DNA from: Fibrobacteria bacterium
GTDB taxonomy: Bacteria > Fibrobacterota > Fibrobacteria > UBA5070
DNA: 64,000 bases
NCBI GenBank assembly: GCA_035352895.1
Contig: DAOPYN010000010.1
Coordinates: 24,188 to 88,187 of the forward strand
Direction of reading: 5' to 3'
The notes under the pieces are model-generated. The model was not told where the DNA came from. It saw nothing but the letters and a program-made list of their open reading frames with translations, and searched no databases. Shown here piece by piece: positions 34,626 through 43,785 of the stretch (position 1 is the first letter of the stretch; each line of letters opens with the position of its first letter). The position numbers and the translations under genes are program-made.

Positions 34626-35366
34626 CTATTCCTTGAACGGGTCCCGCTCCGCTGCGGCGGAATCCGACGAGGATGGTTTGGCGGCGGAGGAGTCCTTGTC
34701 CCAAGGACGGCCTTCCGCCGAATCGCGCAGGCTGTTCCACTTCACCCAGGGATCGGAGAGATCCGCCTTGGGATCGAACTTGGCCCGACTCCAGGAGCCG
34801 TCCTTGCGGAAGGTGACTTCTTCACCCTGCAGCAGCCTGACCCACTCGGCAAGACTGACCTCGCGGGGGCCGGACACCTCGCCCTTGGCCCGCAGGAGAC
34901 TGTCGGTCCGGATGGATCCCACATCGACCCCACCCTCGTAGAGACGCACGCGCGAAGTGGAATCGGTCGCGCCCACGGCGAACACCGTCCCGCGCACCGC
35001 GGCCACGGCCGTGGGCGTGCGCACTCCGAATCCGGTTCCACCGCTGCCGACCTTCCGGACGTTCGCCCAGATCCTGCCTGCCTGGAGAGCCGGTTCGGGA
35101 GTGGCCTTGCCGCGCAAAGCCAGCACCAAGCGGGAATGCTCCTCCAAGCGGACCAGGGTGTTGTCCGGGTAGCGAAGCTCGGCGCGGGATGCCTTGGACA
35201 TGCCCAGGGTGTCCCCGACCTTGCACTGGAGCCCCACTCCAAGGGGAATCTTCTGTTTTCCACGCACCAGATGCCCGGAACCCACGAGGTAGGAAACCTT
35301 GGGTCCTTCCTGCGCGAAGGCGCCCAGGAGCGGAAGAAGGAGACAGACCAGCGCGCGGGACACCAT
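34626..35366 (-). CDS. secreted FecR-domain protein
   Basis: Signal peptide MVSRALVCLLLPLLGAFAQ. FecR-like core ...RTPTAVAAVRGTVFAVG.... GGAGG RBS. It is the last gene of the long minus-strand operon. Confidence 0.65.
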   Translation of the reverse strand: MVSRALVCLLLPLLGAFAQEGPKVSYLVGSGHLVRGKQKIPLGVGLQCKVGDTLGMSKASRAELRYPDNTLVRLEEHSRLVLALRGKATPEPALQAGRIWANVRKVGSGGTGFGVRTPTAVAAVRGTVFAVGATDSTSRVRLYEGGVDVGSIRTDSLLRAKGEVSGPREVSLAEWVRLLQGEEVTFRKDGSWSRAKFDPKADLSDPWVKWNSLRDSAEGRPWDKDSSAAKPSSSDSAAAERDPFKE

Positions 35367-35368
35367 CG

Positions 35369-36718
35369 TCAGACCTCCAGAAGTTCGGGATTTTCCTCGA
35401 GGAACTTGGTCGTGAAGGCCCCGGAACGGAAGATCCGGGAGTCCAGGATGCGCCGCTGCAACCGCGCGGTGGTGGCCGGACCGTTCACCACGAGCTCGTC
35501 CAGGACGCGCACCATGCGATCGATTGCCTGGTCCCGGTCGGAAGCGTGCACGATCAGCTTGCCCACCATCGAGTCGTAGTGCGGAGGAATGGAGTACCCC
35601 GCGTAGATGTGGCTGTCCCAACGCACCCCGAAGCCACCAGGCACGTGGAGCCCCTGGACCACGCCCGGACAGGGACGGAACCCCAGGGAGGGGTCCTCGG
35701 CGTTGATGCGGCACTCGATGGCGTGTCCCTTCACCTTGATGTCCGATTGCTTCCAGGGCAGTTCCTCTCCCCGGGCCACCTGGATCTGGGCGCGGATCAG
35801 GTCGACTCCCGTGACCATCTCGGTGACGGGATGCTCCACCTGGATGCGGGTGTTCATCTCCATGAAGTAGAACGAGCCGTCCTCGTCCAGCAGGAACTCC
35901 ATGGTGCCGGCGTTCTCGTACCCCACTGCCTTGGCGCCCTTGACGGCGGCCCGGCCCATGGCCTGACGGATCTTGTCATCCACCGCGGGGGAAGGGGATT
36001 CCTCCACGAGCTTCTGGTGGCGACGCTGCACCGAGCAGTCGCGTTCGCCGAGATGGACCACGTTGCCGTGGGAATCGGCCATCAGTTGGATCTCGACGTG
36101 GCGGGGACGCTCGAAGTAGCGTTCCATGTACACCCGTCCGTCCCCGAAGCAGGCCAGCGCCTCCGCCGTGGCCACGGGAAACTGGCTTTCCAGTTCCTTG
36201 ACGTCGCGCACCACGCGCATGCCGCGTCCGCCGCCACCGGAAACCGCCTTGATGATCATGGGAAACCCAACCACCTTGGCCCACCGGCGGGCCTCGTCGA
36301 TGGTGGCCACCGGTCCGTCGGAGCCGGGGATGGTGGGGACGCCCGCGGCGCGCATGGCGTCCTTGGCCTGGGACTTGTCGCCCATGCGGGAGATCGCCTC
36401 CGGCGATGGGCCGATGAACTTGAATCCGCACTTGCCCACAAGTTCCGCGAACCGGGGATTCTCGGAGAGGAATCCGTAGCCCGGATGGATCGCGTCGGCC
36501 CCGGTCAGGGTGGCCGCAGACAGGATCTGTCGCATATCCAGGTATGACTTCTTCCCCGGAGGCGGCCCGATGCAGACGTCCTCGTCGGCGAGCCTCACAT
36601 GGAGGGAATCGGCATCCGCCGTGGAATGGACCGCGACGGTGCGGATGCCCAGTTCCTTGCAAGCGCGGATCACGCGCAGGGCGATTTCGCCACGGTTGGC
36701 GATCAGGATCTTTTTCAT
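35369..36718 (-). CDS. accC: acetyl-CoA carboxylase biotin carboxylase subunit
   Basis: 449 aa [25 protein letters not shown]... with the ATP-grasp and BC C-terminal domains. The ATG overlaps the pilT stop (ATGA). Confidence 0.95.
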
Positions 36719-41483: not shown

Positions 41484-43075
41484 CGTGGACCCTCCGTTGG
41501 AAAGTTGTGGTCCAAGGTAATATCCACGAGGACAGGCTCGCCATCCCGGGGCGTGGGAAGAGCCAGGAAGAGCTCGACCTGGCGCAGTTGGCGCAACTGG
41601 GCCAAGGTACGGGAAATCCGATCGTCGGTGGGCACCACCAAGGTACGGACCTCCAGCGCCTTCAAGGCCGGCATCGGATTGGGCATGGAGGCAAGAGGCA
41701 TGACCTCCCCTGGCTCGGCGGGAGATTCGTCCTGGAGAGCCAGGAAGCCCAGCATCCGCACCCGCGAAGATGCCTGGAACCGGCGGGCGAGATCCTGGGA
41801 AGCAGCCCCCAACCCCACCACCAGCACGCGGCGTGGAAAGGTCCGGGCGCGTCGCGCATGCCACAGGTGCCGACCCAGGATCGCCAGGCAGGCGACACCC
41901 GCCCCGATGACGAAGCTTCCACGCGAGAACACGATGGACTTGGCGATGAAGCCGGTGGTCAGGAACCCTCCGCTGGCTCCGGCGAGGCCGGTCAACAGAT
42001 TCCGTCGCGAGACCGGAGCTCCGGAATAATCACCCACCAGGAGCATGGCGCCCATGAACCAGATGCTGAGCACCGGATGCCAGATCCAGTCGAATCGTCC
42101 GTCTCCGAGATAGGTGCCGCTGCTGCGCAGCCAGAGCCAAAGGCTGGAGATCGTGAAGAAGGACAGGTTGATGGACACCAGATCCATCCCCATGCGGCGC
42201 CAGCGCCGCATGGACTGCCCGAAATGCCCCATGGCGGCGAGAAGCCAGGCCACGAGGGTCAGCAAGCCACCCAGGACGACGCCCACCCCGAAGTTCTTGC
42301 GGGCGAAGACGACCATGGCCTGGTAGAAGTTGATTCGCGCTCCCAGGGGCCGGGTGGCGGCACTCTGTCCCTTGTGGTGGACGATGTGCACGTTGCCGTG
42401 GTACCAGATCTCCCAGTCGGCCTGGGCCACGCGCAGGCACAGATCGAGATCCTCGCCGTAGAGGAAGAAGATTTCGTCGAATCCCTTCACGAATCGGAAG
42501 ACTTCCGCTCGGATCCAGAGGAACGATCCCGAGACGGCCTCGACCGGATAGGTCCCCGCCGGGTCCAGGTAGGTGAGGTTGTACTTGCCCAAGGTCCGAC
42601 TCTTGGGAAACAGGATGGAAAGCCCCGAAAGCCGCTGGATGGTGATCTTGGGAGTGGGAATCGAACGTCGGCAGGCGAGCTGGAGCTTGCCATCGCCATC
42701 CACGATCCGGCACCCCGCGATGCCGAGCCTGGGATTGGCTTCCACGTATCGATGCATCTCGCGCAAGGTGCTCGGCAGGACCACCGTATCGGGGTTCAGG
42801 AAGAGGATCCACTCGCCCTTGGCAAGGGCGGCTCCCCGATTGCACCCGATGGAGAACCCCAGGTTGCGGTCCATCGCCAGGAATTGCACCTCGGGAAATT
42901 CCCTGGAAAGGATCTCCACTGTGTCGTCGGCCGACGCGTTGTCGACCACGATCACTTCCAGGCGAGGGGAATCGGCATCCAGGGTTCGCAGGCTTTCCAG
43001 GCAATCGCGCAGTCGGTCCCGTACGTTGAACGAGACGATGACGACGGAAAGCTGGACTTCGCCCGTTCGATTCAC
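41480..43075 (-). CDS. glycosyltransferase family 2 with C-terminal multi-pass membrane domain
   Basis: QLSVVIVSFNVRDRLRDCL...VIVVDNASADDT...GCNRG...YGEDLDLCLR (GT2 DXD and ED motifs), then about 6 TM helices. The likely start is GTG 43075 overlapping the upstream TGA (GTGA). The ORF-track N-terminal extension overlaps the upstream gene by 320 nt and is rejected. Confidence 0.75.
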   Translation of the reverse strand: MNRTGEVQLSVVIVSFNVRDRLRDCLESLRTLDADSPRLEVIVVDNASADDTVEILSREFPEVQFLAMDRNLGFSIGCNRGAALAKGEWILFLNPDTVVLPSTLREMHRYVEANPRLGIAGCRIVDGDGKLQLACRRSIPTPKITIQRLSGLSILFPKSRTLGKYNLTYLDPAGTYPVEAVSGSFLWIRAEVFRFVKGFDEIFFLYGEDLDLCLRVAQADWEIWYHGNVHIVHHKGQSAATRPLGARINFYQAMVVFARKNFGVGVVLGGLLTLVAWLLAAMGHFGQSMRRWRRMGMDLVSINLSFFTISSLWLWLRSSGTYLGDGRFDWIWHPVLSIWFMGAMLLVGDYSGAPVSRRNLLTGLAGASGGFLTTGFIAKSIVFSRGSFVIGAGVACLAILGRHLWHARRARTFPRRVLVVGLGAASQDLARRFQASSRVRMLGFLALQDESPAEPGEVMPLASMPNPMPALKALEVRTLVVPTDDRISRTLAQLRQLRQVELFLALPTPRDGEPVLVDITLDHNFPTEGPR

Positions 43076-43785
43076 CGATGGCGCCCCATCCGCAGACGCA
43101 CCACCAGGAGAAGCGCTTCCCGAATGATCTTCCCGGACATCTTGCTCACTCCCGCCCGCCGATCGACGAACACGATAGGAACTTCGGCCAGCCGGAACCC
43201 CTTCTTCCAGACCTTGAAATTCATCTCGATCTGGAATCCGTAGCCGCTGGCGGAGATTCCGTCGAAGTCGACGGACTCCAAGGCCTCGCGCCGGAAGCAT
43301 TTGAATCCGGCGGTGCAATCGGCGATGGGAAGACCGGACACGAACTTGGCGTACTTGTTGGCGAACCAGGACAGAAGCAGCCTGGACATGGGCCAATTGA
43401 CCACGTTCACGCCCGTCAGATACCGGGAGCCGATCACCAGGTCGGCCGACTCCGACGCTTCCAGCATCTGGGGCACGTACTTGGGATCATGGCTGAAATC
43501 GGCATCCATCTCGAAGACTCGCTCGTAGTCCCGCTCCAGCGCCCAGCGGAACCCGGCCACGTAGGCGCTTCCCAATCCCATCTTCCCCGCACGGCGCATC
43601 AGATGGACGCGAGAAGATTCCCGACCGCGCGCCTCGACGATATCCCCGGTCCCATCCGGCGACCCGTCGTCGACCACAAGGACATGCACGGTTTCCGGGA
43701 ACCCCATCAAGGTATCCAGGAGTTCCGTGATGTTGTCCTTCTCGTTGTAGGTGGGAACCACGATCAGGGTCTTGCGAGCGCTCAA
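43072..43785 (-). CDS. polyprenol-phosphate mannosyl/glucosyltransferase (Dpm1/GtrB-like GT2)
   Basis: MSARKTLIVVPTYNEKDNI...LVVDDGSPDGT...EMDADFSHDP..., 237 aa. Confidence 0.85.
   Translation of the reverse strand: MSARKTLIVVPTYNEKDNITELLDTLMGFPETVHVLVVDDGSPDGTGDIVEARGRESSRVHLMRRAGKMGLGSAYVAGFRWALERDYERVFEMDADFSHDPKYVPQMLEASESADLVIGSRYLTGVNVVNWPMSRLLLSWFANKYAKFVSGLPIADCTAGFKCFRREALESVDFDGISASGYGFQIEMNFKVWKKGFRLAEVPIVFVDRRAGVSKMSGKIIREALLLVVRLRMGRHR

What the first reader, a model, noticed from the sequence alone, without database searches (positions are those of the whole stretch)
34626..43785. Nine-gene overlapping minus-strand operon mixing glycosyltransferases, all three ACC components (accA, accB, accC), trm112-like, a TPR repeat protein, pilT and a FecR-domain protein
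Seen in sequence: consecutive genes overlap or abut (GTGA at 43072-43075, accA start abutting the GT2 stop at 41480-41483, ATGA at 40500-40503, 1-nt and 4-nt junctions around pilT). The dpm1-like GT2, membrane GT2, accA, trm112, TPR, accB, pilT, accC and fecR-like genes therefore look co-translated. accD is absent, and the transcript starts just downstream of tRNA-His. Inference: lipid synthesis (ACC), glycolipid or glycan synthesis (GT2s) and pilus retraction appear co-regulated. This is an unusual functional mix that may reflect envelope remodelling coupled to motility.
Basis: partly seen in the sequence, partly recalled or inferred. Interest (0 to 1): 0.5.

Follow-up and report, generated by a model that had tools for sequence, protein, structure and literature searches.

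The report
PilT paralogue inside an ACC operon
This is a real, tightly packed nine-gene operon in a wastewater Fibrobacterota genome; its odd core, a special PilT-type motor ATPase sitting between the acetyl-CoA carboxylase genes accB and accC behind a conserved TPR protein, is an ancient gene order found in several related candidate and named phyla, but nothing yet shows that lipid synthesis and pili are biochemically linked.

Summary
All nine minus-strand genes exist at the stated coordinates, with 4-nt overlaps or gaps of at most 42 nt. Their identities hold: two GT2 enzymes, accA, a Trm112/YcaR-like protein, TPR, accB, pilT, accC and a FecR-domain protein. The block is bracketed by the two strongest hairpins in the region. 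It is preceded by a Bacteroidetes-type -7 box (TAGATTT) that is invariant in nine related species. No such box, and no comparable hairpin, lies inside it. One correction: tRNA-His is on the opposite strand, divergent from the operon. accD is absent from the window. All seven related species with readable flanks keep all nine genes in order. The core accB-pilT-accC recurs in WOR-3, TA06, Zixibacteria, Stahlbacteria, Ignavibacteria-labelled bins and Gemmatimonadota: accB lies upstream in 68 of 71 loci and accC downstream in 69 of 73. This PilT is a distinct subfamily with Walker A G[TVI]TG, no AIRNLIRE motif, a PPHQH signature and a conserved C-terminal SDRxW tail. Fibrobacter and Chitinivibrionales keep TPR and pilT but lack the acc genes there. 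The likeliest reading is therefore a mosaic housekeeping operon, not proven coupling of lipid synthesis to motility. No relevant paper describing the conserved arrangement was found.

The parts
43942..43975 (.). Upstream boundary: a 15-bp imperfect hairpin flanked by T/A runs, between the convergent pssA-like gene (-) and tRNA-His (+). It is a candidate bidirectional terminator that would insulate the operon from upstream transcription.
   Evidence: I5, 93% complementary; fold z = -3.7.
43865..43939 (+). tRNA-His(GTG) on the opposite strand, divergent from the operon. This marks the boundary and is not part of the transcript.
   Evidence: ARAGORN and Rfam. The same antisense tRNA-His sits upstream of GT2a in eight related species.
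43809..43816 (-). Candidate promoter -7 box, TAGATTTC, of the Bacteroidetes/FCB type TAnnTTTG. It lies 31 nt upstream of the GT2a TTG start. A GGAGG ribosome-binding site follows at about 43792-43796.
   Evidence: TAGATTT is invariant in 9 of 9 aligned relatives despite large insertions in two of them. TAGATTT occurs only 3 times in the window, each time upstream of a gene. In 7 of 8 related species it is the only TAnnTTTn on the coding strand of the cluster; the eighth, L018, has three weaker matches inside genes. The consensus is documented in PMC9723704.
43072..43785 (-). GT2a: a soluble 237-aa family-2 glycosyltransferase. It is Dpm1/PpgS/AglJ-like and is probably a polyprenyl-phosphate sugar synthase.
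   Evidence: PF00535 at 1.2e-29. The best NCBIfam matches are AglJ and PpgS, all far below their equivalog cut-offs. The TTG start and the SD sequence are conserved.
41480..43075 (-). GT2b: a 531-aa protein with a GT2 domain, then hydrophobic segments, then a C-terminal region resembling the N-terminal part of polyprenyl glycosylphosphotransferases.
   Evidence: (TIGR03025 positions 3-212 match residues 298-498). The L007 orthologue carries PF13727.
40500..41483 (-). accA, the acetyl-CoA carboxylase carboxyltransferase alpha subunit.
   Evidence: NF004344 scores 455.6 bits against a cut-off of 357.
40210..40503 (-). Small Trm112/YcaR-like (PF03966-type) protein.
   Evidence: Pfam 18.9 bits, below the cut-off of 22. 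BLASTP against E. coli YcaR gives E = 7e-5 and aligns the CPxx and GIPxLL halves. Conserved next to GT2b or accA in L007, L011-L020.
38323..40167 (-). Cytoplasmic TPR protein. It has an N-terminal TPR domain of about 130 aa. A disordered Ala/Pro/Ser-rich acidic middle of about 430 aa carries five DDIEGRLDDLF-type motifs. A C-terminal single TPR follows.
   Evidence: net charge -39, no hydrophobic segment. A TPR homologue lies upstream on the same strand in 47 of 51 loci across phyla. Those read in full share this architecture.
37817..38302 (-). accB (BCCP). The biotinylation motif EAMKLMN is present. An alternative start lies at 38287.
   Evidence: TIGR00531 scores 161 bits against a cut-off of 115. 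Motif. The public gene calls give 156 aa.
36718..37815 (-). PilT-family hexameric ATPase of a distinct, acc-embedded subfamily. Its marks are Walker [19 protein letters not shown] in place of [16 protein letters not shown], and the C-terminal tail [12 protein letters not shown].
35369..36718 (-). accC, biotin carboxylase.
   Evidence: TIGR00514 scores 713 bits against a cut-off of 626.5.
34626..35366 (-). Secreted FecR-domain (LipL45-like) protein with an N-terminal signal-like segment. It is not an anti-sigma factor.
   Evidence: PF04773 at 7.4e-17. Hydrophobic residues 1-19. It follows pilT directly in Chitinivibrionales.
34556..34605 (.). Downstream boundary: a perfect 23-bp hairpin with a 4-nt loop, between the convergent fecR and a 188/193-aa ORF. 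It is a candidate bidirectional terminator without a U-tract.
   Evidence: -57.9 kcal/mol, z = -9.65; I1. L013 has a related hairpin sharing the GTAGGGACGC core right after fecR.

Best explanation
The nine genes form one transcription unit. Transcription would start at a Bacteroidetes-type promoter, with its -7 box TAGATTTC at 43809-43816. That box sits in the 79-nt spacer shared with the divergent tRNA-His. The unit would end at the 23-bp hairpin after fecR. Its content is an evolutionary mosaic rather than one pathway.

1. An ancient block, shared by seven or more related lineages, reads (hldE-like)-TPR-(aroQ)-pepP-(efp)-accB-pilT-accC. In it, a special PilT paralogue sits between the two physically interacting ACC subunit genes.
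2. A class-Fibrobacteria module, GT2a-GT2b-Trm112/YcaR-like, lies upstream of the TPR gene. It probably makes a polyprenyl-phosphate-linked sugar for envelope glycosylation. A FecR-domain exported protein follows pilT in the Chitinivibrionales-type loci (L008-L010) and follows accC in the window lineage.
3. accA was recruited in the window's sub-lineage.

Shown: gene identities, spacing, boundaries, synteny and the PilT subfamily signature.

Inferred:
- The genes are co-transcribed and translationally coupled. PilT and its TPR partner would then be made constitutively, at levels tied to the growth-linked ACC genes.
- The ATPase is a type IV pilus accessory or retraction motor of PilU-like design. 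It has lost AIRNLIRE and gained a conserved C-terminal docking tail. The cytoplasmic TPR protein is its likely partner.
- The acc-pilT adjacency persists mainly because a gene lodged between co-transcribed essential genes cannot easily leave. ACC and the ATPase need not act on each other.
For: Gene identities and junctions.

Boundaries:
- The two strongest hairpins in the 10-kb region lie exactly at the two ends (folds).
- TAGATTT is invariant in nine species. Seven of eight related species have no other TAnnTTTn inside the cluster, and the window has none on the minus strand there.
- The other exact TAnnTTTG hits in the window also lie just upstream of genes, including tRNA-Pro.
- GC3 is uniformly high (0.70-0.89), so there is no sign of a foreign insert.

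Conservation:
- Identical arrangement on 6 independent contigs of the same organism.
- All nine genes in order in 7 of 7 related species with readable flanks.
- L007, at 72% PilT identity, keeps GT2a-GT2b-x-accA-small ORF-TPR-accB-pilT-accC and has pilMNO and a secretin gene 4-9 kb downstream.
- accB lies directly upstream in 68 of 71 loci, accC directly downstream in 69 of 73, and a TPR homologue upstream in 47 of 51. The loci are labelled as Fibrobacterota, WOR-3, TA06, Zixibacteria, Stahlbacteria, Ignavibacteria and Gemmatimonadota. Gaps are mostly 2-100 nt.
- The other genes in the block are unrelated housekeeping genes: aroQ, pepP, efp and hldE-like.

Subfamily:
- 82 of 82 orthologues have G[TVI]TGSGKS and PPHQH, and none has AIRNLIRE. 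The 26 tandem paralogues in the same WOR-3/Stahlbacteria-type loci do not carry these marks.
- The tail G[IV]xx[ST][SA][DE]Rx[WF] is conserved.
- The clade is separated in 99 of 100 NJ bootstraps.
- PilU logic from the literature: PilU lost AIRNLIRE and gained a C-terminal extension that contacts PilT.
Against: - There are no transcript data. Promoter and terminator assignments rest on motif conservation and folding only.
- No -33 TTTG element was found, and the window's -7 box ends in C rather than G.
- The 3' hairpin lacks a U-tract.
- Promoters for other sigma factors inside the block cannot be excluded.
- Gene order kept across this many phylum-level lineages is unusual for unrelated functions and is classically read as a sign of interaction (Dandekar et al. 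1998, as cited in PMC5437119). A direct ACC link is therefore not excluded.
- No canonical pilT, pilB or pilC is visible in the 64-kb window, so the pilus role of this paralogue in this organism is inferred from homology and from L007.
- The 80 loci are the best tblastn matches to this PilT. They define the orthologous clade and are not an unbiased sample of those phyla.
Confidence: 0.6

Rival explanations
1. First reader's reading. The mix is adaptive: ACC (lipid supply), the GT2 enzymes (glycolipid or glycan) and pilus retraction are deliberately co-regulated, so that envelope remodelling is coupled to surface motility.
For: - The block probably has a single promoter.
- The neighbourhood is rich in envelope-lipid genes: an lpxA-like gene and pssA upstream, and a YcaR-like protein whose E. 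coli relative sits in msbA-lpxK-ycaR-kdsB.
- accA was recruited into the same operon in this sub-lineage.
- An hldE-like LPS gene heads the block in Zixibacteria and Chitinivibrionales.
Against: - The block also holds aroQ, pepP and efp in other phyla.
- Fibrobacter and Chitinivibrionales keep GT2s/TPR/pilT or TPR/pilT/FecR without any acc gene.
- The GT2 module is absent outside class Fibrobacteria.
- No regulator or shared regulatory element beyond a housekeeping-type promoter was found.
Confidence: 0.15
2. The PilT-like ATPase, with its TPR partner, acts on acetyl-CoA carboxylase itself. It could assemble, localise or regulate the AccB-AccC half-enzyme, and would not be a pilus motor. The precedent is YqhY/RfaA, the third gene of the Firmicute accBC operon.
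For: - It sits precisely between accB and accC in several phylum-level lineages, with very short gaps.
- It is a distinct subfamily lacking the AIRNLIRE motif, which modelling places at the PilT-PilC interface.
- It coexists with canonical pilT paralogues in WOR-3.
- Precedent: accBC-yqhY, where the extra gene controls ACC (bioRxiv 10.1101/2024.02.19.580884, listed).
Against: - Orthologues with the same signature persist next to the TPR gene, without acc genes, in Fibrobacter, Fibrimonadaceae and Chitinivibrionales.
- All catalytic boxes of secretion-type ATPases are intact, and the best structural relatives are PilT proteins.
- L007 has pilMNO and a secretin gene nearby.
Confidence: 0.1
3. 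The block is not one operon. It would be two or three units, for example GT2a-GT2b-accA-trm112 and TPR-accB-pilT-accC-fecR. These would be driven by internal promoters of types the scans cannot see, sitting in the 42-nt and 20-35-nt gaps or inside coding sequence.
For: - The only non-overlapping junctions are those before TPR and before accB.
- The deep synteny block begins at the TPR gene, whereas the GT2 module is lineage-specific.
- Promoter rules for Fibrobacterota are not established. The sigma-70 scan is uninformative here.
Against: - No TAnnTTT on the coding strand and no hairpin of more than 73% complementarity lies inside the block.
- The gaps are too short for a typical promoter plus 5' UTR, and they carry SD sequences.
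- Seven of eight related species show a single -7 box, upstream of GT2a.
Confidence: 0.15

Closest known systems
accBC operon of E. coli and Pseudomonas, and the tricistronic accBC-yqhY operon of Bacillus subtilis and other Firmicutes (PMC5437119)
   Same: accB and accC are co-directional and closely spaced, and presumably co-transcribed so that the two interacting subunits are made together. As with yqhY, an extra non-ACC gene is a conserved member of the unit across phyla.
   Different: Here the extra gene lies between accB and accC, not after them, and it is a PilT-family ATPase rather than an Asp23-family protein. accA is in the same operon. A functional link to ACC is shown for YqhY but not here.
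PilT and PilU type IVa pilus retraction ATPases (P. aeruginosa, V. cholerae; PDB 3JVV, 2EWV, 5FL3, 9N32)
   Same: It passes the TIGR01420 PilT/PilU family cut-off. The Walker A and B boxes, the Asp box and the His box are intact, and the length is about 365 aa. Like PilU, it lacks AIRNLIRE and carries a conserved C-terminal extension.
   Different: Walker A is G[TVI]TG instead of GPTG. The subfamily has the signature FYPPHQHQ and a different tail motif, SDRxW. It forms its own clade apart from the Aquifex, Geobacter and Thermus PilT proteins and from the tandem paralogues of WOR-3. It is not next to pilT or pilB/pilC. No experiment exists for any member.
Conserved housekeeping cluster aroQ-pepP(yqhT)-efp-accB-accC, known from Firmicutes and others (own knowledge, not checked in a paper here)
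   Same: Gemmatimonadales loci read TPR-aroQ-pepP-accB-pilT-accC and TA06 loci read TPR-pepP-efp-accB-pilT-accC. This is the same functionally heterogeneous block.
   Different: A TPR gene heads the block and pilT splits accB from accC. In the window lineage pepP, aroQ and efp have left the block, while the GT2 genes, accA and fecR have joined it.
Bacteroidetes sigma-A promoters (-33 TTTG, -7 TAnnTTTG; PMC9723704; related motif in Chlorobaculum, bioRxiv 10.1101/172254)
   Same: TAGATTT(G/C/T) lies 31-37 nt upstream of the GT2a start codon and is invariant in nine species. The same octamer sits 8 nt before tRNA-Pro.
   Different: No -33 element was recognised. The motif has not been validated in Fibrobacterota.
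E. coli YcaR (PF03966) in msbA-lpxK-ycaQ-ycaR-kdsB
   Same: It is a small Trm112-like protein whose gene overlaps its neighbour by 4 nt inside an envelope-lipid gene cluster.
   Different: The window protein is longer (97 against 60 aa), with an insertion of about 27 residues. It scores below the Pfam cut-off. Its neighbours are GT2 and accA genes rather than kdsB.

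Membership tests
Multi-subunit bacterial acetyl-CoA carboxylase (AccA, AccB, AccC) | Each subunit reaches the curated equivalog score of its NCBIfam model. | tested here: met
   accA 455.6 bits against 357; BCCP 161.1 against 115.2; accC 713 against 626.5.
Multi-subunit bacterial acetyl-CoA carboxylase (AccA, AccB, AccC) | BCCP carries the biotinyl-lysine motif E(A/V)MK(M/L). 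| tested here: met
   [13 protein letters not shown] is present near the C-terminus.
Multi-subunit bacterial acetyl-CoA carboxylase (AccA, AccB, AccC) | A partner AccD (carboxyltransferase beta) is encoded in the genome. | not testable with these tools
   There is none in the 64-kb window or within 10 kb of the cluster in L001 and L007. The rest of the genome could not be read.
Classical accBC operon | accC immediately follows accB. | tested here: not met
   A 1.1-kb pilT gene lies between them, here and in about 70 related loci.
PilT/PilU family type IVa pilus ATPase | Family-level HMM score, plus the Walker A, Asp, Walker B and His boxes. | tested here: met
   TIGR01420 scores 451.7 bits against 319.1. 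The boxes align with the Aquifex, Geobacter and Thermus PilT proteins; Walker A has Thr in place of Pro.
Canonical PilT (primary retraction motor) | C-terminal AIRNLIRE motif, which modelling places at the PilT-PilC interface. | tested here: not met
   ATIHDYLIN, with a one-residue insertion, takes its place. None of 82 orthologues has the motif. Its meaning is described.
Canonical PilT (primary retraction motor) | Genetic association with type IV pilus machinery genes. | tested here: inconclusive
   There are none in the window. L007 has PilZ-pilM-pilN-pilO-secretin 4-9 kb downstream. WOR-3 loci have a pilT-type tandem pair 5-7 kb upstream.
PilU (PilT-dependent accessory ATPase) | Loss of AIRNLIRE, plus a C-terminal extension that docks on PilT, in a gene next to pilT. 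| tested here: inconclusive
   The motif loss and a conserved tail are present. The tail motif differs from PilU's, the gene is not next to pilT, and orthology to gammaproteobacterial PilU was not tested because no PilU sequence could be retrieved.
Polyprenyl-phosphate hexose synthases (Dpm1/PpgS/AglJ type GT2) | A soluble GT2 domain of about 230 aa with DxD motifs, and an equivalog-level match. | tested here: inconclusive
   PF00535 is met (103.9 bits). The best equivalogs, AglJ at 70 bits and PpgS at 61.7, are far below their cut-offs of 325 and 370. The donor and acceptor are unknown.
Trm112p-like / UPF0434 (PF03966) | Pfam gathering score. | tested here: not met
   18.9 bits against 22. 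The pairwise alignment to YcaR (E = 7e-5) supports distant membership with an insertion.
FecR-type anti-sigma factor | A cytoplasmic anti-sigma domain, then a transmembrane segment, then a periplasmic FecR domain, encoded next to an ECF sigma factor. | tested here: not met
   Only a signal-like N-terminus and one FecR domain are present, and no sigma factor gene is adjacent. The closest named relatives are the LipL45/Lsa33 lipoproteins, well below their cut-offs.
Bacteroidetes-type sigma-A promoter | A -7 TAnnTTTG box and a -33 TTTG box at the correct spacing, upstream of a mapped transcription start. | tested here: inconclusive
   The -7 box matches 7 of 8 positions here and is exact in five relatives. 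No -33 box was found, and no start-site data exist.

The most novel reading that the evidence does not exclude
The acc-embedded PilT subfamily and its conserved acidic TPR partner form a previously unrecognised two-component machine found across seven or more related phylum-level lineages. Two versions are open. In one, it is a PilU-like accessory motor that arose independently and docks through its SDRxW tail. In the other, it is functionally tied to the AccB-AccC half of acetyl-CoA carboxylase, so that membrane lipid supply and a secretion-type ATPase are mechanistically coupled. In either version, its position inside the essential accBC unit would be selected rather than accidental.
Probability: 0.15. 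Interest if true: 0.75.

Novelty: new variant of a known kind. Interest (0 to 1): 0.5.

Why it matters
Every protein type here is known. The operon's mixed content by itself is ordinary genome economy.

What is new is comparative. A clearly delimited PilT subfamily has been kept between accB and accC, behind a TPR protein with a shared domain layout. It has no AIRNLIRE motif, a variant Walker A, a PPHQH signature and a conserved C-terminal tail. The arrangement is seen in Fibrobacterota, Gemmatimonadota, Zixibacteria, WOR-3, TA06, Stahlbacteria and Ignavibacteria-labelled bins. No relevant paper containing pilT together with accB and accC was found.

This has three uses:
- It gives type IV pilus researchers a third motor class to test alongside PilT and PilU.
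- It gives ACC researchers a natural case in which the accBC unit is split.
- It gives annotators a sequence signature for separating this paralogue from true PilT.

It also suggests that these Fibrobacterota use the Bacteroidetes-type -7 promoter box.

Tried and rejected
- The sigma-70 promoter and intrinsic-terminator scan found no promoters, and its four weak terminator-like hits were fewer than the shuffles gave. It is uninformative for this clade, so I used the FCB -7 motif and hairpin searches instead.
- Rfam found no RNA element in the block. It found only tRNA-His, tRNA-Pro and RNase P RNA elsewhere.
- A profile search with 14 diverse orthologues returned only WOR-3, Zixibacteria and Fibrobacterota proteins, under generic PilT/PilU names. 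It did not widen the taxonomic range.
- A search with the 'Ignavibacteriaceae' PilT returned mostly Zixibacteria and no cultured organism. That bin's label is therefore doubtful, and no tractable host was identified. One hit labelled Deferrimicrobium has a Zixibacteria-like locus and is probably mis-binned.
- I tried to retrieve a PilU sequence from PDB alignments to compare tails. PilU ranked sixth and was not printed.
- Pfam on the giant ORFs and the convergent 193-aa ORF gave nothing.
- I did not run structure prediction. Alignments may contain only window sequences or P-ids, complexes cannot be modelled, and a monomer model of PilT or of a mostly disordered TPR protein would not discriminate between the hypotheses.
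- I considered horizontal acquisition of pilT and rejected it. GC and GC3 are uniform, and the order is inherited across phyla.
- I considered a fixed six-fold match between the TPR repeats and the hexamer and rejected it. Strict copy numbers vary between 4 and 7, with further degenerate copies in L007.

Full report
**Observation**

The window is about 64% G+C, so long spurious ORFs abound. Translation of the stated coordinates gives clean ORFs. Pfam and NCBIfam confirm them.

- GT2a (43072-43785) is a soluble Dpm1/PpgS/AglJ-like family-2 glycosyltransferase.
- GT2b (41480-43075) has a GT2 domain, then hydrophobic segments, then a C-terminal part resembling the N-terminus of polyprenyl glycosylphosphotransferases.
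- accA (40500-41483), accB (37817-38302) and accC (35369-36718) all score above their equivalog cut-offs.
- The Trm112-like protein (40210-40503) is below the Pfam cut-off but aligns to E. coli YcaR.
- The TPR protein (38323-40167) is 614 aa.
- The PilT/PilU-family ATPase (36718-37815) scores above its family cut-off.
- The last gene (34626-35366) encodes an exported FecR-domain protein.

The junctions are as described. There are three 4-nt overlaps. accB to pilT is a 1-nt gap, pilT to accC a 1-nt overlap, and accC to fecR a 2-nt gap. The only real spacers are 42 nt before TPR and 20-35 nt before accB.

phmmer found no accD anywhere in the window. The only other carboxyltransferase is a PCCB-like gene at 26281-27834, which belongs to a methylmalonyl-CoA cluster.

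One correction is needed. tRNA-His (43865-43939) is on the plus strand. It is divergent from the operon and convergent with the pssA-like gene upstream.

**Boundaries of the unit**

A search for short-range inverted repeats over 34.0-44.1 kb put the two strongest hairpins exactly at the two ends.

- A perfect 23-bp stem (34556-34605) lies right after fecR, between convergent genes. The 101-nt stretch around it folds at -57.9 kcal/mol, z = -9.65.
- A 15-bp stem flanked by T/A runs (43942-43975) lies between pssA and tRNA-His.
- Nothing inside the block exceeds 73% complementarity.

The generic sigma-70 scan was empty. I then aligned the GT2a upstream regions of nine related species. TAGATTT was invariant 31-37 nt before a conserved GGAGG-N5-TTG start, even where 70-130 nt had been inserted upstream of it. 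This matches the Bacteroidetes sigma-A -7 box TAnnTTTG (PMC9723704; a related motif in Chlorobaculum).

In the window, TAGATTT occurs only three times, against 0.77 expected. The sites are before tRNA-Pro, before the methylmalonyl cluster and before GT2a. No TAnnTTT lies on the minus strand inside the block. In seven of eight related species, the GT2a-proximal box is the only TAnnTTTn on the coding strand of the whole cluster.

Some relatives also carry a strong hairpin directly after fecR. The one in L013 shares the GTAGGGACGC core with the window's hairpin.

A single promoter, nine tightly coupled genes and a terminal hairpin is therefore the best reading. It remains an inference without transcript data.

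**Source organism and close relatives**

The exact PilT protein occurs on six contigs from ENA, NCBI and JGI samples, all with the same gene order. The window corresponds to a Fibrobacterota MAG, and close relatives are labelled as activated-sludge MAGs.

In the GTDB species-representative scan, nine species carry a PilT at least 90% identical to this one. All seven of them with readable flanks keep all nine genes in order, and eight of the nine have the antisense tRNA-His upstream of GT2a.

A more distant relative (72% PilT identity, on a 3.75-Mb contig) reads GT2-epimerase-GT2a-GT2b-DUF6515-accA-small ORF-TPR-accB-pilT-accC. It has PilZ, pilM, pilN, pilO and a secretin gene 4-9 kb downstream.

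**Deep synteny: the main result**

The 80 genomes whose PilT is most similar to this one are labelled as Fibrobacterota, WOR-3, TA06, Zixibacteria, Stahlbacteria, Ignavibacteria and Gemmatimonadota.

- accB lies directly upstream of pilT in 68 of 71 readable loci.
- accC lies directly downstream in 69 of 73.
- A homologue of the TPR protein lies upstream on the same strand in 47 of 51.
- Gaps are mostly 3-60 nt before pilT and 2-100 nt after it.

ORF-level reading of representative loci gives these orders:

- Gemmatimonadales: TPR-aroQ-pepP-accB-pilT-accC.
- TA06: TPR-pepP-efp-accB-pilT-accC.
- An Ignavibacteria-labelled bin: TPR-pepP-accB-pilT-accC.
- Zixibacteria, including the RBG-1 genome: hldE-like-(TPR)-pepP-accB-pilT-accC-gcvH.
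- WOR-3: pilT-pilT'-...-TPR-accB-pilT-accC.

The classical Fibrobacterota have lost the acc genes from this place but keep the rest.

- Chitinivibrionales read CTP-transferase-TPR-pepP-pilT-FecR.
- A Fibrobacter sp. reads GT-C-GT2-GT2a-GT2b-Trm112-like-TPR-pilT.

The window's operon is therefore a mosaic of three layers: an ancient TPR...accB-pilT-accC core, a class-Fibrobacteria GT2a-GT2b-Trm112-like module, and a sub-lineage recruitment of accA. FecR appears in Chitinivibrionales and the window lineage but not in L007 or L020, so it has no firm layer.

**The ATPase is a distinct subfamily**

I aligned it with the Aquifex, Geobacter and Thermus PilT proteins and with the tandem paralogues of WOR-3. 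The acc-embedded proteins share these features:

- Walker A G[TVI]TGSGKST instead of GPTGSGKST, in 82 of 82 orthologues and in none of the 26 tandem paralogues.
- IGEIRD in place of VGEMRD.
- FYPPHQHQ, in 82 of 82 orthologues and in none of the 26 tandem paralogues.
- A[TA]VxDY(L/I)xDPEKT, with a one-residue insertion, in place of AIRNLIRE. No orthologue has AIRNLIRE.
- A C-terminal extension G[IV]xx[ST][SA][DE]Rx[WF]. It ends the protein in Fibrobacterota as ...GASDRSWMT.

The clade is separated from all other sequences in 99 of 100 NJ bootstraps. Mean identity is 65% within the clade and 45% to the others. The best solved relative is Thermus PilT, 5FL3.

In the PilT/PilU literature, AIRNLIRE is absent from PilU and is modelled at the PilT-PilC interface. 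PilU is proposed to have evolved by losing that motif and gaining a C-terminal extension that contacts PilT. The present subfamily shows the same two changes with a different tail. I therefore read it as a PilU-like accessory motor of possibly independent origin. This is an analogy and has not been tested.

**The TPR partner**

The TPR proteins read in full, from five of these lineages, share the same layout:

- An N-terminal TPR domain of about 130 aa.
- A long acidic, Ala/Pro/Ser-rich middle. In the window protein its net charge is -39 and it has no hydrophobic segment.
- A conserved single TPR, TLAEIYxxQGxxxxALxIYRxLLxxxPxN.

The middle region carries lineage-specific short repeats. In the window lineage, L007 and Chitinivibrionales these are DDIxxRLDxLF motifs, five strict copies here and four to seven elsewhere.

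The TPR gene stays in the same cluster as pilT even where every housekeeping gene between them has left. It is therefore the best candidate for the ATPase's functional partner. TPR domains often bind C-terminal peptides (own knowledge), which makes the SDRxW tail an obvious candidate ligand. This too is untested.

**Why the acc genes are there**

The accBC neighbourhood is a known functionally heterogeneous conserved block.

- aroQ-pepP-efp-accBC occurs in Firmicutes and others (own knowledge).
- accBC-yqhY is conserved in Firmicutes, Chlamydia, Deinococcus/Thermus and Fusobacteria (PMC5437119).

A gene lodged between two co-transcribed essential genes is hard to remove without damaging accC expression. 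That would preserve the order without any biochemical link.

Against this neutral view, gene order kept across so many phyla is classically read as a sign of interaction. YqhY also proved to regulate ACC. I give direct coupling to ACC about 10%.

**Comparison with known systems, and novelty**

All the proteins belong to known families (see the membership table). The arrangement fails the definition of a classical accBC operon. The ATPase fails the canonical PilT test for AIRNLIRE while passing the family-level test.

No relevant paper in the searchable library contains pilT with accB and accC, or with 'biotin carboxyl carrier'. Public annotations call these proteins only 'PilT/PilU family'.

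I rate it a new variant of a known kind, of moderate interest. It is a solid comparative lead with a testable partner hypothesis. It is not a new mechanism.

Noticed in passing
window 14765-14772 (+) and 28429-28436 (-): Two exact TAGATTTG octamers. One lies 8 nt upstream of tRNA-Pro (14781). The other lies about 175 nt upstream of the glyoxalase/epimerase gene that heads the methylmalonyl-CoA cluster. Together with the GT2a site, this suggests the lineage uses the Bacteroidetes-type -7 promoter box.
   Followed up: partly
window 34556-34605: A perfect 23-bp inverted repeat with a 4-nt loop and no U-tract, between convergent genes. The related species L013 has a 16-bp hairpin with the same GTAGGGACGC core at the same place, so it may be a conserved terminator or a protein-binding palindrome.
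   Followed up: partly
window 31646-32023 (-): Bacterial RNase P RNA, class A, full length (260 bits).
   Followed up: no
window about 21377-28436 (-): A methylmalonyl-CoA pathway cluster. It holds methylmalonyl-CoA mutase with a B12-binding domain, a PCCB-like 12S carboxyltransferase (26281-27834) and a glyoxalase-fold epimerase. This is the only other carboxyltransferase in the window, and it is not accD.
   Followed up: partly
window 33984-34565 (+): A convergent 188/193-aa ORF with several CxxC pairs and no Pfam hit. It is conserved next to fecR in all contigs of this organism.
   Followed up: no
window 48570-54353 (-) and 55322-61369 (-): Two ORFs of about 2000 aa with no Pfam hit at all. 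They may be spurious frames in high-GC DNA, or large unknown proteins.
   Followed up: partly
L038, L042-L044, L046-L049, L052, L055, L057, L058, L064 at about 2.4-5.2 kb: WOR-3, Stahlbacteria and unclassified-bacterium loci carry a tandem pair of further pilT paralogues 5-7 kb upstream of the TPR-accB-pilT-accC block. They have a GPTG/GPSG Walker A. In L043 they have AIRNAIRE and SVRNLIRE in place of AIRNLIRE. These genomes therefore have at least three PilT-type ATPases in one neighbourhood.
   Followed up: partly
P0121 and P0162: PilT-like proteins of 455-471 aa with internally duplicated segments, probably from assembly or gene-calling errors. They share GTTGSGKST and an ...SGTSDSKW or ...SASDSAR tail but lack PPHQH. 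This hints at a sister clade in unidentified taxa.
   Followed up: no
L020 1717-4746: In a Fibrobacter sp., a 1009-aa membrane protein precedes GT2-GT2a-GT2b-Trm112-like-TPR-pilT. I judged it a GT-C/DUF2723-like glycosyltransferase from its N-terminal sequence only; it was not scanned. That would fit GT2a making a polyprenyl-phosphate sugar donor for periplasmic glycosylation. The acceptor, pilin or otherwise, is unknown.
   Followed up: no
L092 (GCA_035562415.1, labelled Candidatus Deferrimicrobium): This contig has the Zixibacteria-type order PfkB-CTP_transf-TPR-pepP-accB-pilT-accC-gcvH and a PilT 75% identical to that of L051, the 'Ignavibacteriaceae' bin, whose closest relatives are Zixibacteria. 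The contig is probably mis-binned, or was transferred. The 'Ignavibacteriaceae' label of L051/L054 is doubtful for the same reason.
   Followed up: partly
L016 7106-7197: ARAGORN calls a 92-nt tRNA-Glu(CTC) inside the Trm112-like coding region of one relative. This is most likely a false positive.
   Followed up: no
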